Of a stretch of 64,000 nt of DNA, positions 1-39,152 are shown one piece after another (within the stretch, counting starts at the first letter, position 1; the number at the start of each line of letters is the position of its first letter). Source of the stretch: Escherichia coli (GTDB lineage Bacteria; Pseudomonadota; Gammaproteobacteria; Enterobacterales; Enterobacteriaceae); the NCBI RefSeq assembly GCF_051903065.1, contig NZ_CP178438.1; one strand, given 5' to 3'. The position numbers and the translations under genes were made by a program. The notes under the pieces are model-generated. The model was not told where the DNA came from. It was given only the letters and a program-made list of their open reading frames with translations, and made no database searches.

Positions 1-241
1 CAACTACTGCCAACGTCGCCACACCAACAGCCGTTGCCACACCGACAACTGTCGCCGTGCCGACAGCGCCAGCAGCCACGCCACCAGTGGTAGCAGCCGT
101 CGTGGTTGCACCGGTAGTGGTCGTTGTGGTGCCAGTAGTACCCGTCGTTGCCTCGGTCCCGTTTGCTGCTTCAGGGGCAGCAAACGCAGCTGGCGTCGTC
201 AACATGAAGGCCATAAGGATTGCAGAAAGCTTGTGTTTCAT
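1..241 (-). CDS. gfcA: Threonine-rich inner membrane protein GfcA (YmcD), 5' part only; gene runs off the window start
   Basis: Minus-strand ATG at 241 translates to MKHKLSAILMAFMLTTPAAFAAPEAANGTEATTGTTGTTTTT..., a signal peptide followed by a Thr/Gly-rich tract. The plus-strand track ORF 57..365 is its antisense. Confidence 0.75.
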   Translation of the reverse strand, partial: MKHKLSAILMAFMLTTPAAFAAPEAANGTEATTGTTGTTTTTTGATTTAATTGGVAAGAVGTATVVGVATAVGVATLAVV

Positions 242-681
242 AACTTTTCCTTTATTCATCGCATGGACAATACGTACGCTTGAGATCAGGATTGTCTACT
301 TTGAGTATAACATCCTTGTGAAATCTCCCTTTCCTCATACCACTTGCACTATATACAGCGGGTGAGAAAGGCGCGCAGAGGGAAATATAAGATTGTTAAC
401 GATTTCCCTCTGGAAATACGACTTGTAGGCATAAGATAAATCTTAGAAAAATACAAATTAAAGATAAAAAATTGTTAAGAAAGCTATTAACTATTGTTGG
501 TGATATAGTTTCAAGTGGTACTATAACTGGCTGTTAAGTGGCATTTATAACTATTAGTTGCAGAGATATTCGGTTAAATGGATTAGTTTCCTGGTAAAAA
601 AGTAACTTGCGTTCTAATGCATGGTGTTGACTATTGAACTATTCCAATAAAACCAGTCAGCTTTAAACAAGCAGCGTCATA

Positions 682-894: not shown

Positions 895-1180
895 ACAAAT
901 TCCTTACTGAAAATACTGCGCTGCACTATACGGGGTTAATAAAATAAAGCCAGCGATATTTAAGACCGCCGGACGGCTAAAATAAAATTTGCTTAATCTC
1001 AATTATCATGCGTTAATAGCTGCGTCGGTTTGAAAGACAGACAGCATACAAAGTAGTTTACTAAAGCAGTTCTCATTATCAGGCATTATCCCCTTCTTTT
1101 GAGTCTCTCTCCTGAACACTAAGTAGTTTCTGTATTAAAGCCCTGTTTGCCGAAAGGCCCAACAATGAAGGAAGTAAAAT

Positions 1181-1393
1181 ATGTCTAATAAAATGACTGG
1201 TTTAGTAAAATGGTTTAACGCAGATAAAGGTTTTGGCTTTATCACTCCTGATGATGGCAGCAAAGACGTTTTCGTCCATTTCACCGCCATCCAGAGCAAT
1301 GAATTCCGCACGCTGAACGAAAATCAGAAAGTTGAATTTTCTATTGAGCAGGGGCAACGTGGCCCCGCGGCAGCGAACGTTGTTACGCTCTAA
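1181..1393 (+). CDS. cspG: Cold-shock protein CspG (70 aa)
   Basis: Track [37 protein letters not shown]...; the roughly 285-bp untranslated region upstream is typical of a cold-shock gene leader. Confidence 0.93.
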
Positions 1394-1592
1394 GGTTGCC
1401 GTTATTACTCAACATCTCCATTTCCGCTGTCCATGTTGTCATGGTTCACAGTACCGTACATCGGCATTCGATGTGACGGAGCGAAACCCTTTGGGCGCTA
1501 AGTGTATTTTTTGTAAATCGACGATGATCACCTTTGATAACGTCGCGCTGCAAATACGCACTGACCATGCGCCGCTGGATTTCACAAAATAA
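1359..1592 (+). CDS. ymcE: Small zinc-ribbon protein (YmcE/Sfa-like) overlapping the 3' end of cspG; start codon uncertain (GTG 1359 or TTG 1332)
   Basis: Track ORF 1332..1592 with CPCCHG...CIFCKS Cys pairs; position immediately after cspG matches the K-12 order. Confidence 0.45.
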
Positions 1593-3153: not shown

Positions 3154-5898
3154 TCAAATCGCGTTCAGGTCTTTCTTATGCAACCATGCTTCCAGAGCGG
3201 CAACACTGCGTGTAATTTCTTCGTGTGGAAGGGGGGCAGATAATGGCTGCTGCTCCAGTTGTGCGCATATCTGGCTGGCGACACGCATTCCCAGACTCGA
3301 GCAACTGCTTTTTAACTGATGCGCGGCACGCTTTATTTTCTCGCTATCCTGACTGGCGCGGGCAATGTCGATTTCATCGAGAAGCGGCAGGGCATGTTGT
3401 TTAAATAATGCCAGCCATTCGTGGATCTTCTCTGTCCCCATTAACTGAGCGTCTTCATTGAGTTGCGAGACATCCAGTGGTAGATCGTTATTGGCTTGCA
3501 GTTGGAGATAGTGCGCCAGTAACTGACCGAGCACTTCACGCGGCACCGGTTTAGGGATAATCCCGCGAAATAGTAAACTGGTACGCTGGCGCAGCGTTTC
3601 GTCAATGACATGGGCGCTAAAGCCAATCAAAACCAGCGACGGATATTGCTGTGCCAGTTGCCGGGCAAGGGTAATGCCGTCGATATCCGGCAGATCAAAA
3701 TCCACCAGTGCGGCAGCAAACGGTTCGCTATTTTGCAGTGTCTCTAAAGCCTGCGCGGCATTGCCAATAGCAACAACCTGCGCACCACTGGTGTTCAGCA
3801 TCTCAACGGTAATTCGCTGGGTTAGCGGGTTATCTTCAATTAACAGCAAACGTAAACCGTCAAGACGCACCGCCTGATTGACTGTTTTTGGCACGGGTGC
3901 CGTGGCAACACGTAACGGCAAGCGTAAACAAAAACAGCTTCCAACCTCCGGCGTGCTGGTGGCGCTCAGTTCGCCGCCCATCGCCTGGGCCAGACGGCTA
4001 CTGATAGTCAGCCCCAGCCCGGTGCCGCCGCGTTTGCCGCTTACCTGCACAAATGGCTGGAAGATTTCTGCCAGTTTCGCGGGATCAATACCGCAGCCGC
4101 TGTCTTCCACTTCGACCAGCCATTGCTCGCCATCAGTGCGGCTACGTAAAACGATCTGCCCTTCGTCAGTAAAACGTAGGGCGTTGCTCAACAGGTTGGT
4201 TATAACCTGACGAATACGTCGCGGATCGCCCATTAACGCAGTCGGTACATCGTCGGCCATTTCAGTTGTCAGGCGAATCGGCCGACCTTTCACCCGTCCG
4301 CTCATTAATTGCAGGGTACTTTCCAGCAGCGGGCGCGGTTCAAAGGGCTCATCGCTGACCGAAACATTCTTGCCACCTGCTTCGATAGCGGAATAATCGA
4401 GAATATCGTTGAGGATGGTCAGCAACGATTCGCCGGAGTCGGTAATTGCCCGCAAATCATCACGCTGGGCGTTAAGTGCGGGGTTATCTGCCAGTAGCTG
4501 TGCGGTGCCGAGAATACCGTACAGCGGTGTGCGGATCTCATGGCTCATCGCCGCCAGAAACGCCGATTTTGCCTGGCTGGCTTTTTCTGCTTCCGCCCGT
4601 GCTTGTCGGTGTTCTATCACCAGTTCCTGCAATTCAGCTGTACGCGCTTTGACCTGTGCCGCCAGCTGTTCGCGGTGGCGATTCAGTGCATGAACACTGC
4701 TGCGAAACGCATCCATCAGCCGCCCGATGGTGTCCAGCTCCCGTACACCAGCGGTTTCCGGGAAAGGGGAGTCAATATCACCGTCCAGCAGCCGTTGCAG
4801 CGCCTGCGTTTGTTCGGCAAGTGGACGCGTGACTGAGCGATAAACCACGCGCCAGAGGATCAGAATCAGTGCGCAAAGTGAAACCATCCCCAGCAATAAC
4901 AGGCTGTATTGCCCGCGTGCACTGGCTTTTTCCAGATGCGCCAGTCCATGCTGATTGCGCAGCTCAATGGTGTCGACCAGCTGACTGACTTCGCTACTAA
5001 ACAGCGCGAACTGGGCGATATTATTTTGGGCGAGAGTTTGCAGGTGATTGCTGATTTCACTGTCCTGCTGGAACAGCGCCAGCAAATCGCTATATTGGCT
5101 AACGGTAGTTAACGTTGTTGCGACCTGCGCACGAACTCCCGGATCTTCAATGCGTATTTGCCGACGTTGCAGAATTTTCACCGCATTATTGAGCTGCTTT
5201 TCCAGCGTTGGTGCATTTTTCTGGAGCTGCTCCAGCCCCAGATTCATCACCATTTGCTGCACCCGCAGAGCGCTAAGGCGCAGTTCATTCATCTGGTTAA
5301 CATACTCAAGATCGATATCAATCAGCCGATCGAGTGCACTTTCAGCAGCCTGACGCTGATGTTGTTCGATCAAATCGTAAATCCCGGCCTGGGTCGCTCC
5401 GGCGGAGGTTGCCGCATTATTCGCCTGACCTTGCGCCAGGCGTGCGATCTCATCGGCGGCAGCGACTATCTGCTGACTGAGTTGCTGTTGTTGCTGGCGC
5501 AGTTGCAAACGCTGCCCCACCAGTTCCCCTTGCTGACGTAACGAACGGGAGATCTCCTGCTCCTGTTGTTCAATAGCGGTGGTATCAAAACCTTGTTCCC
5601 GTAACGCTTGCAGCAACGCATTAATCTTCAGGCTTTGTGCGGTGAGCATTCGCCCCTGCGCCTGCCACATCTTTTCGTTATCGGCACTGGTCAGGTTCTG
5701 CGCGGCGAAAAGTTCCCAGGCGCTGGCTTCGCTCAACTGGCGCGCCATATTCATGGTAGGAATCAATGCCTGAGTATTGTCTTTTTCCACCTGGCTGATA
5801 AAGCGCAGGTTGTACCATCCCACCAGGGTACTGGTCAGGGTTAACAGCGCCATCAGGGCAAAGCCCATCCAGAGTCTTCGGGTCAGGGTTAAATTCAC
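3154..5898 (-). CDS. torS: Hybrid sensor histidine kinase TorS (TMAO sensing)
   Basis: 914-aa ORF with periplasmic domain, HisKA H-box ([11 protein letters not shown]), ATPase, receiver (LLIEDNPL...DFDLPDIDG) and C-terminal HPt domain; sits beside torT and torR. Confidence 0.93.
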
Positions 5899-5980
5899 GG
5901 TCGGTGCACTTTAGGTGAAAAATGTTGAGTCGCAAAGCGGAATGCATCTAGCATAAAGTCTTATTATTGATGAGGCTATC

Positions 5981-7009
5981 ATGCGCGTACTGCTATTTTT
6001 ACTTCTTTCCCTTTTCATGTTGCCGGCATTTTCGGCTGATAACCTGTTGCGCTGGCATGATGCGCAGCATTTCACGGTGCAAGCCTCTATGCCGCTAAAA
6101 GCCAAACGCGTATGGAAACTGTGCGCGCTTTATCCCAGCCTGAAAGATTCATACTGGTTATCGTTGAACTATGGTATGCAGGAGGCTGCTCGCCGCTACG
6201 GTGTGGATTTAAAAGTGCTGGAGGCAGGCGGCTACAGCCAGTTGGCTACCCAGCAAGCACAAATCGACCAGTGTAAACAGTGGGGCGCAGAGGCCATTTT
6301 GCTCGGTAGTAGCACGACGTCATTTCCCGATCTGCAAAAGCAGGTAGCAAGTCTGCCGGTGATCGAACTGGTAAATGCTATTGATGCTCCCCAGGTGAAA
6401 AGCCGCGTTGGTGTACCCTGGTTTCAGATGGGCTATCAACCTGGGCGATATCTGGTGCAATGGGCGCACGGTAAACCACTGAACGTGCTGTTGATGCCCG
6501 GACCCGATAACGCCGGGGGCAGTAAGGAGATGGTCGAGGGTTTTCGCGCAGCCATTGCCGGAAGCCCGGTGCGTATTGTTGATATTGCGCTCGGTGATAA
6601 CGATATTGAAATCCAGCGTAACCTGTTGCAGGAGATGCTGGAACGCCATCCAGAAATCGACGTCGTTGCCGGAACGGCCATTGCGGCAGAGGCGGCAATG
6701 GGTGAAGGGCGCAACCTGAACACGCCGCTTACCGTGGTGTCGTTTTATCTTTCACATCAGGTGTATCGCGGGCTGAAGCGGGGAAGAGTGATTATGGCTG
6801 CCAGCGATCAAATGGTCTGGCAGGGGGAACTGGCGGTTGAGCAGGCCATCAGGCAGTTACAGGGGCAATCGGTGTCTGATAATGTCAGCCCACCGATTTT
6901 AGTTCTGACGCCGAAAAATGCCGACCGAGAACATATCCGCCGCTCGCTGTCACCGGGGGGATTTCGTCCGGTCTATTTTTATCAGCACACATCAGCGGCT
7001 AAGAAATAA
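5981..7009 (+). CDS. torT: Periplasmic TMAO-binding protein TorT
   Basis: 342-aa ORF with signal peptide MRVLLFLLLSLFMLPAFSA and a periplasmic-binding-protein fold; divergent from torS. Confidence 0.9.
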   Translation: MRVLLFLLLSLFMLPAFSADNLLRWHDAQHFTVQASMPLKAKRVWKLCALYPSLKDSYWLSLNYGMQEAARRYGVDLKVLEAGGYSQLATQQAQIDQCKQWGAEAILLGSSTTSFPDLQKQVASLPVIELVNAIDAPQVKSRVGVPWFQMGYQPGRYLVQWAHGKPLNVLLMPGPDNAGGSKEMVEGFRAAIAGSPVRIVDIALGDNDIEIQRNLLQEMLERHPEIDVVAGTAIAAEAAMGEGRNLNTPLTVVSFYLSHQVYRGLKRGRVIMAASDQMVWQGELAVEQAIRQLQGQSVSDNVSPPILVLTPKNADREHIRRSLSPGGFRPVYFYQHTSAAKK

Positions 7010-7674
7010 CCTTCGCCATGTTGTGTCACCAGTAAATCCGCGCTGAGTTTATGGCGTAAACGACGAATTAACACATCGACGGTGCGCAGGTCAGGGTTTT
7101 CCACCCGACGCGCAGAGAGCATACGCAGCAGACGTTCACGGCTGAGAATTTCTCCCGGATTCGTCACAAATGCCACCAACATTTCATACTCTGCGCGGGT
7201 CAGTTTAATCGGCTCACCATCCCGCTCCAGCGTATGGCGCGACACATTCAGGCAATAACCCGCAAAGCGATAGCAGTTGTCCTGAGTGAGCGGTTGAACT
7301 TGTCGCGCGAGGTCGATTCGCCAGAGCAGATTTTTTACCCGTACTACCAGTTCGCGCAGTTCCAGCGGTTTGGTGACGTAATCGTCTGCGCCCATTTCCA
7401 GCCCAACAATACGGTCAATCCGATCGCTGCGTCCGGTAACCAGAATAATCCCCACCGTTGAGCGTTCTCGCAGGGCGCGGGTTAACATCAGGCCATTTTC
7501 ATCGGGCAAGTTGATATCCAGCAGAATTAAATCCACCGGCTGATTCTGCATAATTTCCCGTAGCCCGGCACCGCTCGCCGTAACGGAAACGGTATACCCC
7601 TCCTGAGTGAAGTAGGATTGTAATCGCGCCTGGGTAACCGGCTCATCTTCAACAATAACAATGTGATGTGGCAT
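6982..7674 (-). CDS. torR: Response regulator TorR (OmpR family)
   Basis: 230-aa ORF MPHHIVIVEDEPVTQARLQSYF... with receiver plus winged-helix domain; its 3' end overlaps the torT 3' end by 28 bp. Confidence 0.93.
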   Translation of the reverse strand: MPHHIVIVEDEPVTQARLQSYFTQEGYTVSVTASGAGLREIMQNQPVDLILLDINLPDENGLMLTRALRERSTVGIILVTGRSDRIDRIVGLEMGADDYVTKPLELRELVVRVKNLLWRIDLARQVQPLTQDNCYRFAGYCLNVSRHTLERDGEPIKLTRAEYEMLVAFVTNPGEILSRERLLRMLSARRVENPDLRTVDVLIRRLRHKLSADLLVTQHGEGYFLAADVC

Positions 7675-7692: not shown

Positions 7693-7755
7693 CTGTTCAT
7701 ATCTGTTCATATTCTGCCGTAAGCCATTCATCCTGACCAGTGCCGCTGTTCATAT
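7693..7755 (+). promoter_or_regulatory. torCAD promoter tor boxes (TorR binding decamers CTGTTCATAT)
   Basis: Exact CTGTTCATAT at 7693-7702, 7703-7712 and 7746-7755, with a degenerate copy (cattcatcct) near 7725-7734, directly upstream of torC. Confidence 0.85.
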
Positions 7756-7803: not shown

Positions 7804-8976
7804 ATGCGGAAACTCTGGAACGCGCTACGCCGACCCAGTGCTCGTTGGTCGGTACTGGCGCTGGTCGCTATTGGGATTGTGATTGGCATTGCGCTGATTG
7901 TATTGCCACACGTTGGGATCAAAGTCACCAGCACAACCGAATTTTGTGTCAGTTGCCACAGTATGCAACCGGTGTATGAAGAATATAAACAGTCGGTGCA
8001 TTTCCAGAACGCCTCCGGCGTGCGAGCTGAATGCCATGACTGTCATATCCCGCCGGATATTCCAGGCATGGTGAAGCGCAAACTGGAAGCGAGCAACGAC
8101 ATTTACCAGACCTTTATTGCTCACTCCATTGATACACCTGAAAAATTCGAAGCCAAACGCGCGGAACTTGCCGAGCGTGAATGGGCGCGAATGAAAGAAA
8201 ACAACTCGGCAACCTGCCGCTCCTGCCATAACTACGACGCGATGGATCATGCGAAGCAGCATCCTGAAGCGGCACGTCAGATGAAGGTGGCAGCGAAAGA
8301 TAATCAATCCTGCATCGACTGTCATAAAGGTATTGCCCACCAGTTACCGGATATGAGTAGCGGCTTCCGTAAGCAGTTCGATGAGCTGCGCGCCAGTGCT
8401 AATGACAGTGGTGACACGCTGTACTCTATTGATATTAAGCCGATTTATGCGGCGAAAGGCGATAAAGAAGCCTCTGGTTCTCTGCTGCCTGCTTCGGAAG
8501 TGAAAGTCCTTAAACGTGACGGCGACTGGCTGCAAATTGAAATTACCGGCTGGACAGAAAGCGCCGGACGTCAGCGTGTACTCACCCAATTCCCAGGTAA
8601 ACGCATCTTTGTTGCCTCGATTCGTGGTGATGTGCAGCAGCAGGTGAAAACGCTGGAGAAAACCACCGTTGCCGACACCAATACCGAGTGGAGCAAGTTG
8701 CAGGCCACCGCGTGGATGAAGAAAGGCGACATGGTGAACGATATCAAACCGATCTGGGCTTATGCGGATTCGCTGTACAACGGCACCTGTAACCAGTGCC
8801 ACGGCGCACCGGAAATCTCCCACTTTGACGCTAACGGTTGGATCGGCACGCTCAACGGCATGATTGGCTTTACCAGCCTCGATAAACGTGAAGAACGCAC
8901 CTTGTTGAAATATCTGCAAATGAATGCGTCTGACACCGCAGGTAAGGCTCACGGCGATAAGAAGGAAGAAAAATAA
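7804..8976 (+). CDS. torC: Pentahaem c-type cytochrome TorC
   Basis: ATG 7804 (MRKLWNALRRPSARW...) inside track ORF 7756..8976; several CxxCH haem motifs (CVSCH, CHDCH, CRSCH, CIDCH, CNQCH). Confidence 0.92.
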   Translation: MRKLWNALRRPSARWSVLALVAIGIVIGIALIVLPHVGIKVTSTTEFCVSCHSMQPVYEEYKQSVHFQNASGVRAECHDCHIPPDIPGMVKRKLEASNDIYQTFIAHSIDTPEKFEAKRAELAEREWARMKENNSATCRSCHNYDAMDHAKQHPEAARQMKVAAKDNQSCIDCHKGIAHQLPDMSSGFRKQFDELRASANDSGDTLYSIDIKPIYAAKGDKEASGSLLPASEVKVLKRDGDWLQIEITGWTESAGRQRVLTQFPGKRIFVASIRGDVQQQVKTLEKTTVADTNTEWSKLQATAWMKKGDMVNDIKPIWAYADSLYNGTCNQCHGAPEISHFDANGWIGTLNGMIGFTSLDKREERTLLKYLQMNASDTAGKAHGDKKEEK

Positions 8977-38087: not shown

Positions 38088-39152
38088 ATGGTAACGTCCT
38101 GTACTGGACATGTTTTAGATAATCAACGCGCCACCACTCGCGGAGTTTTCTCCTCCGGTAGTCATCTCGTCACTTTGCATTTTCAACCTCATCCTTTCTT
38201 TTCATGTGTTACCGACGCCGTAAACGGTGCGCGTAGCCGTTTTTCGGCATTTTATCCAAAAGCAAACTATGGCTTACAAGGAAGCCAACCCTCTGATGTT
38301 CGTGCGCATAATCGCGCTGCCAACGGCGCGTGTGATGAATACAAACAACTCAAGGTGCTCTCCATGGGAAGACAAAAAGCAGTGATCAAAGCTCGTCGCG
38401 AGGCAAAACGTGTGCTGAGACGGGATTCGCGCAGCCATAAGCAGCGTGAAGAAGAATCGGTCACCTCGCTTGTGCAGATGAGCGGCGTAGAAGCCATTGG
38501 TATGGCCCGCGACAGTCGCGATACCTCGCCCATCCTCGCGCGAAATGAAGCGCAATTGCACTATCTAAAGGCTATTGAGAGTAAGCAGCTGATATTCGCT
38601 ACGGGCGAAGCCGGGTGCGGAAAAACCTGGATCAGTGCAGCAAAAGCGGCAGAGGCCCTGATACATAAGGATGTCGACAGGATTATCGTCACCCGTCCAG
38701 TTCTGCAAGCCGATGAAGATCTTGGTTTCTTACCTGGAGATATCGCAGAAAAGTTTGCTCCCTATTTTCGCCCGGTATACGACGTGCTGGTCCGGCGCTT
38801 AGGGGCTTCCTTTATGCAGTACTGCCTGCGACCGGAAATAGGGAAGGTGGAAATTGCGCCGTTCGCCTATATGCGTGGACGTACCTTTGAAAATGCAGTT
38901 GTCATTCTTGACGAGGCGCAGAATGTGACTGCCGCGCAAATGAAAATGTTTTTAACCCGCCTCGGGGAGAACGTGACGGTTATCGTTAACGGTGATATCA
39001 CGCAATGCGATTTACCTCGCGGCGTGCGCTCCGGATTAAGTGACGCACTGGAACGTTTCGAAGAAGATGAAATGGTCGGGATCGTCCGATTCGGTAAAGA
39101 GGATTGCGTACGTTCGGCACTTTGCCAACGTACGCTGCATGCATACAGTTAA
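38088..39152 (+). CDS. phoH: PhoH (phosphate-starvation-inducible ATPase); a shorter product from an internal start is possible
   Basis: 354-aa track ORF with Walker A GEAGCGKT and PhoH-like core; internal in-frame MGRQKAVIK near 38365. Confidence 0.88.
   Translation: MVTSCTGHVLDNQRATTRGVFSSGSHLVTLHFQPHPFFSCVTDAVNGARSRFSAFYPKANYGLQGSQPSDVRAHNRAANGACDEYKQLKVLSMGRQKAVIKARREAKRVLRRDSRSHKQREEESVTSLVQMSGVEAIGMARDSRDTSPILARNEAQLHYLKAIESKQLIFATGEAGCGKTWISAAKAAEALIHKDVDRIIVTRPVLQADEDLGFLPGDIAEKFAPYFRPVYDVLVRRLGASFMQYCLRPEIGKVEIAPFAYMRGRTFENAVVILDEAQNVTAAQMKMFLTRLGENVTVIVNGDITQCDLPRGVRSGLSDALERFEEDEMVGIVRFGKEDCVRSALCQRTLHAYS

What the first reader, a model, noticed from the sequence alone, without database searches (positions are those of the whole stretch)
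6982..7009. Convergent torT and torR genes overlap by 28 bp at their 3' ends
The last nine or so codons of torT and of torR are encoded on opposite strands of the same DNA. This constrains both C-termini and implies that transcription of one runs into the other. Other tight couplings are readable: torC/torA (TAATG), torA/torD, cbpA/cbpM, rutA/rutB and ymdB/clsC.
Basis: seen in the sequence. Interest (0 to 1): 0.15.

Follow-up and report, generated by a model that had tools for sequence, protein, structure and literature searches.

The report
torT and torR tail-to-tail overlap
Two E. coli genes that switch on TMAO respiration, torT and torR, really do share their last 28 bases on opposite strands, but this overlap is already annotated, conserved, mildly constraining and has been studied at the RNA level, so it is ordinary.

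Summary
torT (+, 5981..7009) and torR (-, 6982..7674) overlap by 28 bp (6982..7009). RefSeq annotates the same overlap in the matching E. coli genomes and in K-12 MG1655. The junction is present at full length in 5,415 of 5,426 complete E. coli genomes. A 28-bp overlap in the same frame also occurs in E. albertii, E. whittamii, Citrobacter, Providencia and Enterobacter ludwigii. Edwardsiella has a 7-bp gap or a 4-bp overlap, and Serratia has 21 or 54 bp, so no locus leaves room for a terminator. Third codon positions of the two genes face each other, which keeps the extra constraint small: 9 of 10 shared wobble sites vary, against 4 of 18 other sites. TorR's end is a conserved part of its fold. 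TorT's overlapped residues 335-342 lie in a variable tail beyond the solved fold. There is no intrinsic terminator and no conserved hairpin at the junction. Published data already cover the proposed check: ExcludonFinder lists torT-torR as a convergent transcript overlap, and Adams et al. 2021 report a Rho termination region on the torR strand 432 nt past the torR stop, inside torT antisense. Verdict: real, already known, low interest.

The parts
5981..7009 (+). torT coding sequence (periplasmic TMAO-binding protein, 342 aa; stop TAA at 7007-7009)
   Evidence: ORF. RefSeq annotation. Hits named TorT at 98-99% identity. Homology to the solved Vibrio TorT 3o1h (E 5e-70).
6982..7674 (-). torR coding sequence (OmpR/PhoB-family response regulator, 230 aa; stop TGA is the complement of 6982-6984, followed in frame by TAA at 6979-6981)
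   Evidence: ORF. RefSeq annotation. Residues 1-121 match the PDB TorR receiver domain 1zgz, and the full length aligns to BaeR 4b09 up to the last residue. Tandem stop found. Ribosome occupancy over the annotated torR stop is shown in PMC5373646 S2 Fig.
6982..7009 (.). 28-bp dual-coding segment: torT codons 335-342 plus stop on the + strand, torR codons 223-230 plus stop on the - strand, with third codon positions facing each other
   Evidence: Phase and substitution pattern: 9 of 10 shared wobble sites vary among 13 genomes, against 4 of 18 other sites. Same length and frame in 12 of 18 orthologous loci.
6977..7006 (+). TorT C-terminal tail (residues 333-342, FYQHTSAAKK) beyond the periplasmic-binding-protein fold
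   Evidence: Alignments to 3o1h_B and 4yhs_A end at TorT residue 332, one residue before both chains end. The tail is variable among orthologues. AlphaFold2 pLDDT is below 50 for residues 317-342 (shallow alignment, weak evidence).
7007..7011 (-). TorR Gly222-Tyr223 codon bases (GGY TA.) whose complement forms the torT stop TAA or TAG
   Evidence: The Gly222 wobble is T or C in all 13 genomes with the 28-bp overlap. If the stop were lost, torT would run on for 82 more codons, to 7256-7258.
6462..6901 (-). Untranslated torR read-through zone antisense to torT, holding C-rich, G-poor stretches (6742-6901 and 6462-6581) and the published Rho termination region at about 6550
   Evidence: C/G is 1.6-2.0 here against a window 95th percentile of 1.73. 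Adams et al. 2021 supplementary file 2 lists MG1655 1,056,830 (-), antisense to torT, Rho score 4.34, p 2.2e-5. It was mapped to the window through the MG1655 coordinates.
7170..7250 (+). C-rich stretch in the torT read-through RNA antisense to torR; a candidate Rho loading region (inferred only)
   Evidence: C/G is 1.75 at +161..240 past the torT stop. No + strand terminator-like site lies between 7009 and 7674. No published 3' end was found for this strand.
7693..7755 (+). Context: tor boxes (three perfect CTGTTCATAT decamers at 7693, 7703 and 7746) in the torR-torC intergenic region, upstream of torC (7804..8976)
   Evidence: 9 matches in the window against 3.95 expected, with the three perfect copies clustered here. 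That these are the TorR-binding tor boxes is established knowledge (Simon et al. 1995, cited).
3154..5898 (-). Context: torS, transcribed divergently from torT and on the same strand as torR, which gives the alternating-strand layout torS(-) torT(+) torR(-) torCAD(+)

Best explanation
This is an ordinary, anciently fixed tail-to-tail overlap of two real genes of the same signalling pathway, and it is not a special regulatory device. The last 8 codons and stop of torT are read from the strand opposite the last 8 codons and stop of torR. Third codon positions face each other, so most synonymous changes in one gene are also silent or mild in the other. TorR is the constrained partner, because its overlapped residues (YFLAADVC) include the final beta-strand of the OmpR-family wing. 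TorT is the tolerant partner, because its residues 335-342 lie in a variable tail beyond the binding-protein fold, and their sequence is largely the antisense reading of TorR's conserved end. The two stops lock each other. The torT TAA/TAG is the complement of TorR's Gly222 wobble plus the 'TA' of Tyr223. The torR TGA is the complement of TorT's Tyr334 wobble plus the 'CA' of Gln335. The junction has no intergenic DNA and no intrinsic terminator, so each mRNA must continue as untranslated antisense RNA into the partner gene, where Rho most likely ends it. This is shown for the torR strand in K-12 and inferred for the torT strand. Both genes are weakly expressed, so polymerase collisions and RNA duplexes should be rare, and the arrangement is tolerated. 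Shown: the overlap, phase, conservation, substitution pattern, absence of a terminator or conserved hairpin, and the published transcript overlap and Rho region. Inferred: Rho termination of the torT transcript, the tail being dispensable, and the lack of a selected regulatory role.
For: Overlap and annotation. Species-wide presence: (5,415 of 5,426 genomes; both genes annotated across the junction in every row listed); all but one of the 120 listed TorT clusters are 342 aa. Cross-genus conservation of the 28-bp, same-frame overlap, and a gap of at most 7 bp in all 18 loci. Wobble-on-wobble phase and small extra constraint: (variable sites 9/10 against 4/18; pairwise difference 0.188 against 0.223 in torR-only sequence; Gly222 wobble T/C in 13/13). 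TorT tail outside the fold; tail variable; low pLDDT. TorR aligned to its last residue with BaeR. No terminator-like site at or beyond the junction on either strand. Junction hairpin no better than shuffles (z 0.29 and -0.24) and without covariation (0 compensatory pairs). C-rich downstream RNA. Published transcript overlap: PMC12288877 Table 1. Published Rho termination region antisense to torT, 432 nt past the torR stop: PMC7815308 supplementary file 2. Very low expression of torS and torT under IscR repression: PMC6814406.
Against: The junction has stayed terminator-free and abutting or overlapping in all 18 loci across six genera, which could also mean the arrangement is selected and not merely tolerated. 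ExcludonFinder reports that excludon pairs as a class show higher synteny and reciprocal single-cell expression, and I could not examine torT-torR individually. The Rho region rests on low read counts (39/14 against 52/81). The antisense RNA could start at an internal promoter instead of torR; a promoter-like site lies at 6924..6896 on the - strand. No data were found for the torT strand. Dispensability of the TorT tail is untested, and the AlphaFold low-confidence zone starts at residue 317, before the tail, so that model is uninformative on this point.
Confidence: 0.8

Rival explanations
1. Selected convergent excludon. On this reading, the overlap and the missing terminator are maintained because antisense transcription lets torT and torR restrain each other through polymerase collision and RNase III cleavage of the RNA duplex. 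This would tune the TorT:TorR ratio and therefore the noise of torCAD induction.
For: torT-torR is listed among 165 convergent excludons of MG1655, and excludon pairs as a class show shorter spacers, higher synteny and reciprocal single-cell expression (PMC12288877). There is no terminator at the junction. All 18 orthologous loci keep a gap of at most 7 bp. torCAD expression is known to depend on noisy, very low TorS/TorT levels (PMC6814406).
Against: For a pair whose coding sequences overlap, transcript overlap is automatic once both genes are expressed, so the listing does not show regulation. TorT and TorR are both positive components of one pathway and must coexist, which makes mutual exclusion counter-productive. 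Both are weakly transcribed, so collisions should be rare. The overlap length is not conserved across genera (-7 to +54 bp). There is no conserved RNA structure. No gene-specific reciprocal expression data were found.
Confidence: 0.12
2. Interleaved read-through units (noncontiguous operons). On this reading, torR transcripts continue through antisense torT into torS on the same strand, and torT transcripts continue through antisense torR into torCAD. Regulator and sensor, or binding protein and reductase, would then be partly co-transcribed, with Rho setting the coupling.
For: The strand layout torS(-) torT(+) torR(-) torCAD(+) permits it. No intrinsic terminator lies in either path. Bicyclomycin raises reads downstream of MG1655 position 1,056,830, in an 800-nt window that reaches the torS 5' end.
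Against: Without bicyclomycin, Rho stops the - strand RNA inside torT, with reads falling from 39 upstream to 14 downstream. ExcludonFinder names only three noncontiguous operons in E. coli and this locus is not among them. torS has its own mapped promoters and IscR control in the torS-torT spacer (PMC6814406). torCAD is driven by TorR at the tor boxes (and established knowledge).
Confidence: 0.05
3. Annotation artefact. On this reading, one of the two 3' ends is mis-called and there is no real dual coding.
For: The TorT tail is not seen in any solved structure and is variable.
Against: A 3' end is fixed by the first in-frame stop, so unlike a start codon it cannot be mis-chosen. Both ORFs are full-length homologues of characterised proteins. 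All but one of the 120 listed TorT clusters are 342 aa. TorR's last residues are conserved and align to BaeR's last residues. Ribosome profiling shows occupancy over the annotated torR stop (PMC5373646).
Confidence: 0.02

Closest known systems
The torT (b0994) / torR (b0995) pair as annotated in E. coli K-12 MG1655 and other RefSeq genomes
   Same: It is the same locus: 28-bp convergent overlap, 342-aa TorT, 230-aa TorR, flanked by torS and torCAD.
   Different: Nothing structural differs. The window comes from another strain (100% match of window 1-25000 to NZ_AP045789.1, about 98% identity to K-12 here) and has silent differences such as T instead of C at 7022.
Convergent excludons (overlapping 3' transcripts of neighbouring opposite-strand genes; ExcludonFinder, PMC12288877)
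   Same: The transcripts overlap in antisense at their 3' ends, and the pair is explicitly listed. No terminator separates the genes.
   Different: Classical excludons overlap in untranslated regions and show reciprocal expression of genes with opposing roles. Here the coding sequences themselves overlap, both products act positively in one pathway, and reciprocity or RNase III processing has not been shown for this pair.
Common 4-nt convergent coding overlaps in prokaryotes
   Same: The phase class is the same (28 = 4 + 24): third codon positions are shared. bioRxiv 10.1101/2025.11.07.687268 calls this class 'phase 2' and says most convergent overlaps fall in it. Edwardsiella hoshinae has exactly such a 4-nt CTAA/TTAG overlap at this junction.
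   Different: This overlap is seven times longer, so eight residues of each protein are dual-coded instead of only the stops.
Rho-dependent termination of antisense and read-through RNA (Adams et al. 2021, PMC7815308)
   Same: A bicyclomycin-sensitive termination region lies on the torR strand inside torT antisense. The upstream RNA is C-rich and G-poor and is untranslated past the stop. Antisense sites were the largest class (51.5%) in that study.
   Different: It is mapped only as an 800-nt-window 'region' with low read counts. The origin of the RNA (torR read-through or an internal promoter) has not been shown, and the torT strand has no data.
Bidirectional intrinsic terminators between convergent genes
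   Same: They occupy the same position, at the meeting point of two convergent genes.
   Different: None is present here. There is no GC-rich stem with a U-tract on either strand. The weak hairpin at 6987-7026 folds no better than shuffled sequence and shows no covariation.

Membership tests
Convergent (tail-to-tail) overlapping protein-coding gene pair | Both ORFs are genuine protein-coding genes | tested here: met
   TorT: E 5e-70 to the solved TorT 3o1h, and named TorT hits at 98-99% identity. TorR: matches the PDB TorR receiver domain 1zgz over residues 1-121 and aligns full-length to BaeR.
Convergent (tail-to-tail) overlapping protein-coding gene pair | Opposite strands, with the 3' ends sharing nucleotides | tested here: met
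   5981..7009 (+) and 6982..7674 (-) share 28 nt.
Convergent (tail-to-tail) overlapping protein-coding gene pair | Both stop codons are stable across relatives, so this is not a strain-specific mutation or a sequencing error | tested here: met
   The overlap is identical in 12 of 18 orthologous loci. The junction is present at full length in 5,415 of 5,426 E. coli genomes. All but one of the 120 listed TorT clusters are 342 aa.
Convergent excludon | Transcripts of the two genes overlap in antisense | not testable with these tools
   No RNA-seq data can be analysed here. Published: the pair is listed in ExcludonFinder Table 1, meaning overlap in at least 50% of 58 samples. It also follows logically from the coding overlap.
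Convergent excludon | Reciprocal (mutually exclusive) expression of the two genes | not tested
   No gene-specific data were found. The supplements of PMC12288877 are not held, and PMC4949985 reports nothing on torT or torR transcript levels.
Convergent excludon | RNase III processing or double-stranded RNA at the overlap | not tested
Bidirectional intrinsic terminator | GC-rich stem-loop flanked by an A-tract upstream and a U-tract downstream, working on both strands | tested here: not met
   No terminator-like site at the junction. Hairpin z-scores are 0.29 and -0.24. There are 0 compensatory pairs, and 4 of the 13 pairs are unpaired in 6-10 of the 13 genomes.
Rho-dependent termination of read-through RNA | Read-through increases when Rho is inhibited | not testable with these tools
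   Published for the - strand: Rho score 4.34, p 2.2e-5 at MG1655 1,056,830. No entry exists for the + strand.
Rho-dependent termination of read-through RNA | Untranslated, C-rich and G-poor RNA upstream of the termination zone | tested here: met
   On the torR strand, C/G is 1.6-2.0 at +81..240 and 1.6 at +401..520 past the stop. On the torT strand it is 1.75 at +161..240. The window's 95th percentile is 1.73. This is suggestive only, because antisense strands of genes are generally C-rich.
Noncontiguous operon | A single transcript spans genes on either side of an opposite-strand gene | not tested
   The locus is not among the three E. coli cases named by ExcludonFinder. There is no long-read data here.
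Tor regulatory locus (torS-torT-torR-torCAD) | Gene order and orientation, plus tor boxes upstream of torC | tested here: met
   Annotation. Three perfect CTGTTCATAT decamers at 7693, 7703 and 7746.

The most novel reading that the evidence does not exclude
The terminator-free, abutting or overlapping torT/torR junction, kept across Enterobacterales, is a selected antisense coupling device. Rho-limited read-through from torR, which is autoregulated, would damp torT, which is IscR-regulated, and the reverse. This would set the TorT:TorR ratio and contribute to the known bet-hedging noise in torCAD expression. In an extension of this reading, read-through links torR to torS and torT to torCAD as interleaved noncontiguous operons.
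Probability: 0.1. Interest if true: 0.4.

Novelty: already known. Interest (0 to 1): 0.1.

Why it matters
It matters little for discovery, because the overlap is in every RefSeq annotation of E. coli and the transcript overlap has been published. The practical points are modest. First, any clean deletion, tag or reporter fusion at the 3' end of torR or torT alters the other gene. Published torT-lacZ fusion strains also carry a torR deletion (PMC6814406); the paper does not say whether that is because of the overlap. Second, one synonymous site in torR, the Gly222 wobble, is effectively constrained by torT's stop codon. Third, the locus is a clean small example of a protein tail that is mostly the antisense shadow of its neighbour's conserved end. 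If the antisense coupling turned out to tune TorT and TorR levels, it would add a layer to a well-studied model of noisy two-component signalling.

Tried and rejected
1. Conserved RNA hairpin or bidirectional terminator at 6987-7026. Rejected: the fold is no better than shuffled sequence, there is no terminator pattern, and there are no compensatory changes while several pairs are broken in most genomes.

2. Rfam family at the junction. None found; the window has four hits, all elsewhere.

3. Edwardsiella's non-overlapping state arising by tandem duplication of an ancestral overlap. Not supported: torT tail DNA is no more similar to the adjacent torR 3' end or to the E. coli overlap than shuffled sequence (p 0.09-0.87). 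Which state is ancestral remains unresolved.

4. The 352-aa TorT variant P0079 as a natural stop-loss allele. Rejected as evidence: it comes from a single 2.3-kb Logan contig that matches the window only to position 7002 and then joins an unrelated LysR-type fragment, so it is a chimera or a one-off rearrangement. I first suspected a Keio-type deletion scar, but by my reading of the sequence and my memory of the scar sequences they do not match.

5. AlphaFold2 as a test of tail disorder. Uninformative: low confidence begins at residue 317 and the alignment is shallow.

6. The original papers (Jourlin 1996, PMC177790; Simon 1994, PMC196761) and Carey 2018 (PMID 29502970) are not held. My recollection that the overlap was noted when torT was first sequenced could not be verified.

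7. The first literature search was swamped by 'tortoise' and 'torr' matches. The first TorT protein search returned only near-identical E. coli sequences.

8. I did not compute a genome-wide frequency of convergent overlaps, because the annotation tool returns only 50-kb slices.

Full report
**Observation.** The window is E. coli chromosome. Window 1-25000 matches NZ_AP045789.1 at 100% in one collinear piece, and the tor region is also identical to NZ_CP083585.1. The ORF listing gives a + strand ORF at 5981..7009 (342 aa) and a - strand ORF at 6982..7674 (230 aa). RefSeq annotates them as torT and torR with exactly these ends. The same 28-bp overlap is annotated in an MC4100 derivative and in MG1655, where torT is 1056261..1057289 and torR is 1057262..1057954. 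Read from the sequence, the shared segment 6982..7009 carries torT codons 335-342 (QHTSAAKK) and TAA on one strand. On the other strand it carries torR codons 223-230 (YFLAADVC) and TGA. One extra base at each end is the third base of torT Tyr334 and of torR Gly222.

**Side claims.** torC/torA share one base (TAATG). torA/torD share four (ATGA). cbpA/cbpM and rutA/rutB share one each. ymdB/clsC overlap by 59 nt as annotated.

**Both genes are real.** TorT matches the solved Vibrio TorT (3o1h, E 5e-70) and hits named TorT at 98-99% identity. TorR matches the PDB TorR receiver domain (1zgz) over residues 1-121 and aligns over its full length to BaeR (4b09). A 3' end is set by the first in-frame stop, so there is no start-codon-style ambiguity. 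Ribosome profiling in PMC5373646 shows occupancy over the annotated torR stop. torR in fact has a tandem stop, TGA then TAA.

**How common and how old.** The junction is present at full length and at least 95% identity in 5,415 of 5,426 complete E. coli genomes, and both genes are annotated across it in every row listed. A scan of one genome per species with TorT returned 18 loci. In all 18, torT and torR are convergent neighbours.
- The overlap is exactly 28 bp in the same frame in 12 loci: E. coli, E. albertii, E. whittamii, four Citrobacter, three Providencia and Enterobacter ludwigii.
- Three Edwardsiella species have a 7-bp gap, and E. hoshinae has a 4-bp overlap.
- Two Serratia loci have 21 and 54 bp in another frame. 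The 54-bp case is from a metagenome-assembled genome and should be treated with caution.

No locus has room for an intergenic terminator. Within this window, torT/torR is the only one of 11 convergent annotated pairs that overlaps; the next tightest is clsC/mdoC with a 7-bp gap.

**Anatomy of the constraint.** Third codon positions of the two genes face each other, and positions 1 and 2 face 2 and 1. This is the same phase class as the very common 4-nt convergent overlaps, since 28 = 4 + 24. Among the 13 genomes with the 28-bp overlap, 9 of 10 shared wobble sites vary, against 4 of 18 other sites. Mean pairwise difference is 0.188 in the overlap and 0.223 in the adjacent 90 nt of torR-only sequence. 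Dual coding therefore costs little here.

The partners are unequal.
- TorR's tail (GEGYFLAA[D/E]V plus one variable residue) is conserved in all 18 loci and aligns to the last residues of BaeR. It is part of the fold.
- TorT's homology to solved structures stops at residue 332 (FRPVY), one residue before both PDB chains end.
- The sequence after that point varies: FYQHTSAAKK, LYQYTSAAKK, QYTSAAKK, LYQPAPKAE, LLPSADVGG.

So TorT 'TSAAKK' is essentially the antisense reading of TorR 'FLAAD'.

The stops interlock. torT's TAA or TAG is the complement of the Gly222 wobble plus the TA of Tyr223. That wobble is T or C in all 13 genomes. Without that stop, torT would continue for 82 more codons. A synonymous site of torR is therefore effectively constrained by torT.

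**Transcription.** The pattern scan finds no terminator-like site at or beyond the junction on the relevant strands. A weak imperfect hairpin (6987-7026) folds no better than shuffled sequence (z 0.29 and -0.24). It shows no compensatory change across 13 genomes, and four of its 13 pairs are unpaired in 6-10 of the 13 genomes. I reject it as an element. Rfam has no hit there.

Each mRNA must therefore run as untranslated RNA into its partner. Downstream of both stops the RNA becomes C-rich and G-poor. C/G is 1.6-2.0 on the torR strand and 1.75 on the torT strand, against a window 95th percentile of 1.73. This suits Rho, although antisense strands of genes are generally C-rich.

**Published data settle much of this.**
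- ExcludonFinder (PMC12288877, Table 1) lists torT-torR among 165 convergent transcript overlaps found in at least half of 58 MG1655 RNA-seq samples.
- Adams et al. 2021 (PMC7815308, supplementary file 2) list a Rho termination region at 1,056,830 on the - strand, antisense to torT. Reads were 39 upstream and 14 downstream without bicyclomycin, and 52 and 81 with it, giving a Rho score of 4.34 and p of 2.2e-5.
- With the MG1655 coordinates, that site is 432 nt past the torR stop, at about window 6550, inside the second C-rich stretch.
- No entry exists for the torT strand, which is plausible because torT is strongly repressed aerobically.

Two caveats apply. The read counts are low. The antisense RNA could also start at an internal promoter-like site at 6924..6896.

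**Interpretation.** The best reading (confidence about 0.8) is a tolerated, entrenched compaction. TorR's conserved end, the interlocked stops and the wobble-on-wobble phase make the overlap cheap to keep and awkward to undo. Rho cleans up the read-through, and low expression keeps interference small.

The main rival is a selected excludon. It is not excluded, but it lacks gene-specific evidence. For a pair with overlapping coding sequences, the ExcludonFinder criterion is met automatically. The two proteins are both positive components of one pathway. The overlap length is not conserved between genera.

A second rival follows from the alternating-strand layout torS(-) torT(+) torR(-) torCAD(+), which would let read-through from torR reach torS and read-through from torT reach torCAD. 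The Rho block in untreated cells, torS's own mapped promoters and the absence of this locus from the three noncontiguous operons named by ExcludonFinder all argue against it.

**Comparison and novelty.** This is the same feature that is annotated in K-12 and thousands of other genomes, and its transcript overlap and a Rho site are already in print. The extra points worked out here are incremental:
- conservation of the 28-bp, same-frame overlap in four genera;
- the small measured constraint;
- the TorT tail as an antisense passenger;
- the constrained Gly222 wobble;
- rejection of a junction hairpin.

I recall that the overlap was noted when torT was first sequenced (Jourlin et al. 1996), but that paper is not held, so this remains unverified.

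**Verdict.** The feature is real, already known, and of low interest (0.1).

Noticed in passing
window 5868-5898 (torS 5' end, - strand): torS is annotated with a GTG start at 5898 (914 aa). Carey et al. [quoted passage not shown]
   Followed up: partly
window 12200-13548: An IS3-family IS1397 element with a programmed-frameshift transposase sits between torD and cbpM in this strain (annotation of the matching genome).
   Followed up: no
window 31926-34450: A 447-aa 'hypothetical protein' is annotated on the - strand (31926-33269). It is followed by about 1.2 kb with no annotated gene before efeU.
   Followed up: no
window 38954-39147 (- strand): Rfam gives a strong hit to Ysr251, an antisense RNA family (187.6 bits against a gathering score of 100). 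It lies antisense to the 3' end of phoH. phoH-pgaD is another pair in the ExcludonFinder list.
   Followed up: no
window 56930-57021 (- strand); 1024-1447 (+); 51246-51330 (-): Other Rfam hits: ES056 sRNA just upstream of csgD (in its 5' leader region), the cspA-type thermoregulator at cspG, and a tRNA that the matching genome annotates as tRNA-Ser.
   Followed up: no
window about 61456-61464: clsC and mdoC (opgC) are convergent with only a 7-bp gap, so there is again no room for a terminator. clsC-opgC is also listed by ExcludonFinder.
   Followed up: partly
   Followed up: no
L025 1-2286 (Logan contig from ERR11042028); breakpoint at window 7002/7003: This contig matches window 5929-7002 and then continues into an unrelated LysR-type gene fragment. 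It gives a 352-aa TorT ending in TSAANHHATGGKNSPW. It is probably an assembly chimera or a one-off rearrangement that breaks inside the overlap.
   Followed up: partly
window 6924..6896 (- strand): A promoter-like site (TCGGCA, 17-nt spacer, TAAAAT; 9 of 12 matches) lies just past the torR stop inside torT antisense. It could be an alternative origin for the Rho-terminated antisense RNA. The number of such sites in the region is no higher than in shuffled sequence.
   Followed up: no
window 49142-50975: A cluster of decayed genes sits next to the tRNA-Ser gene: a frameshifted YqeJ-family gene, a truncated winged-helix gene and a frameshifted IS1A transposase.
   Followed up: no
E. coli genome search: Six of the places that match the tor junction are on records labelled as plasmids, which is unexpected for a chromosomal locus.
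   Followed up: no
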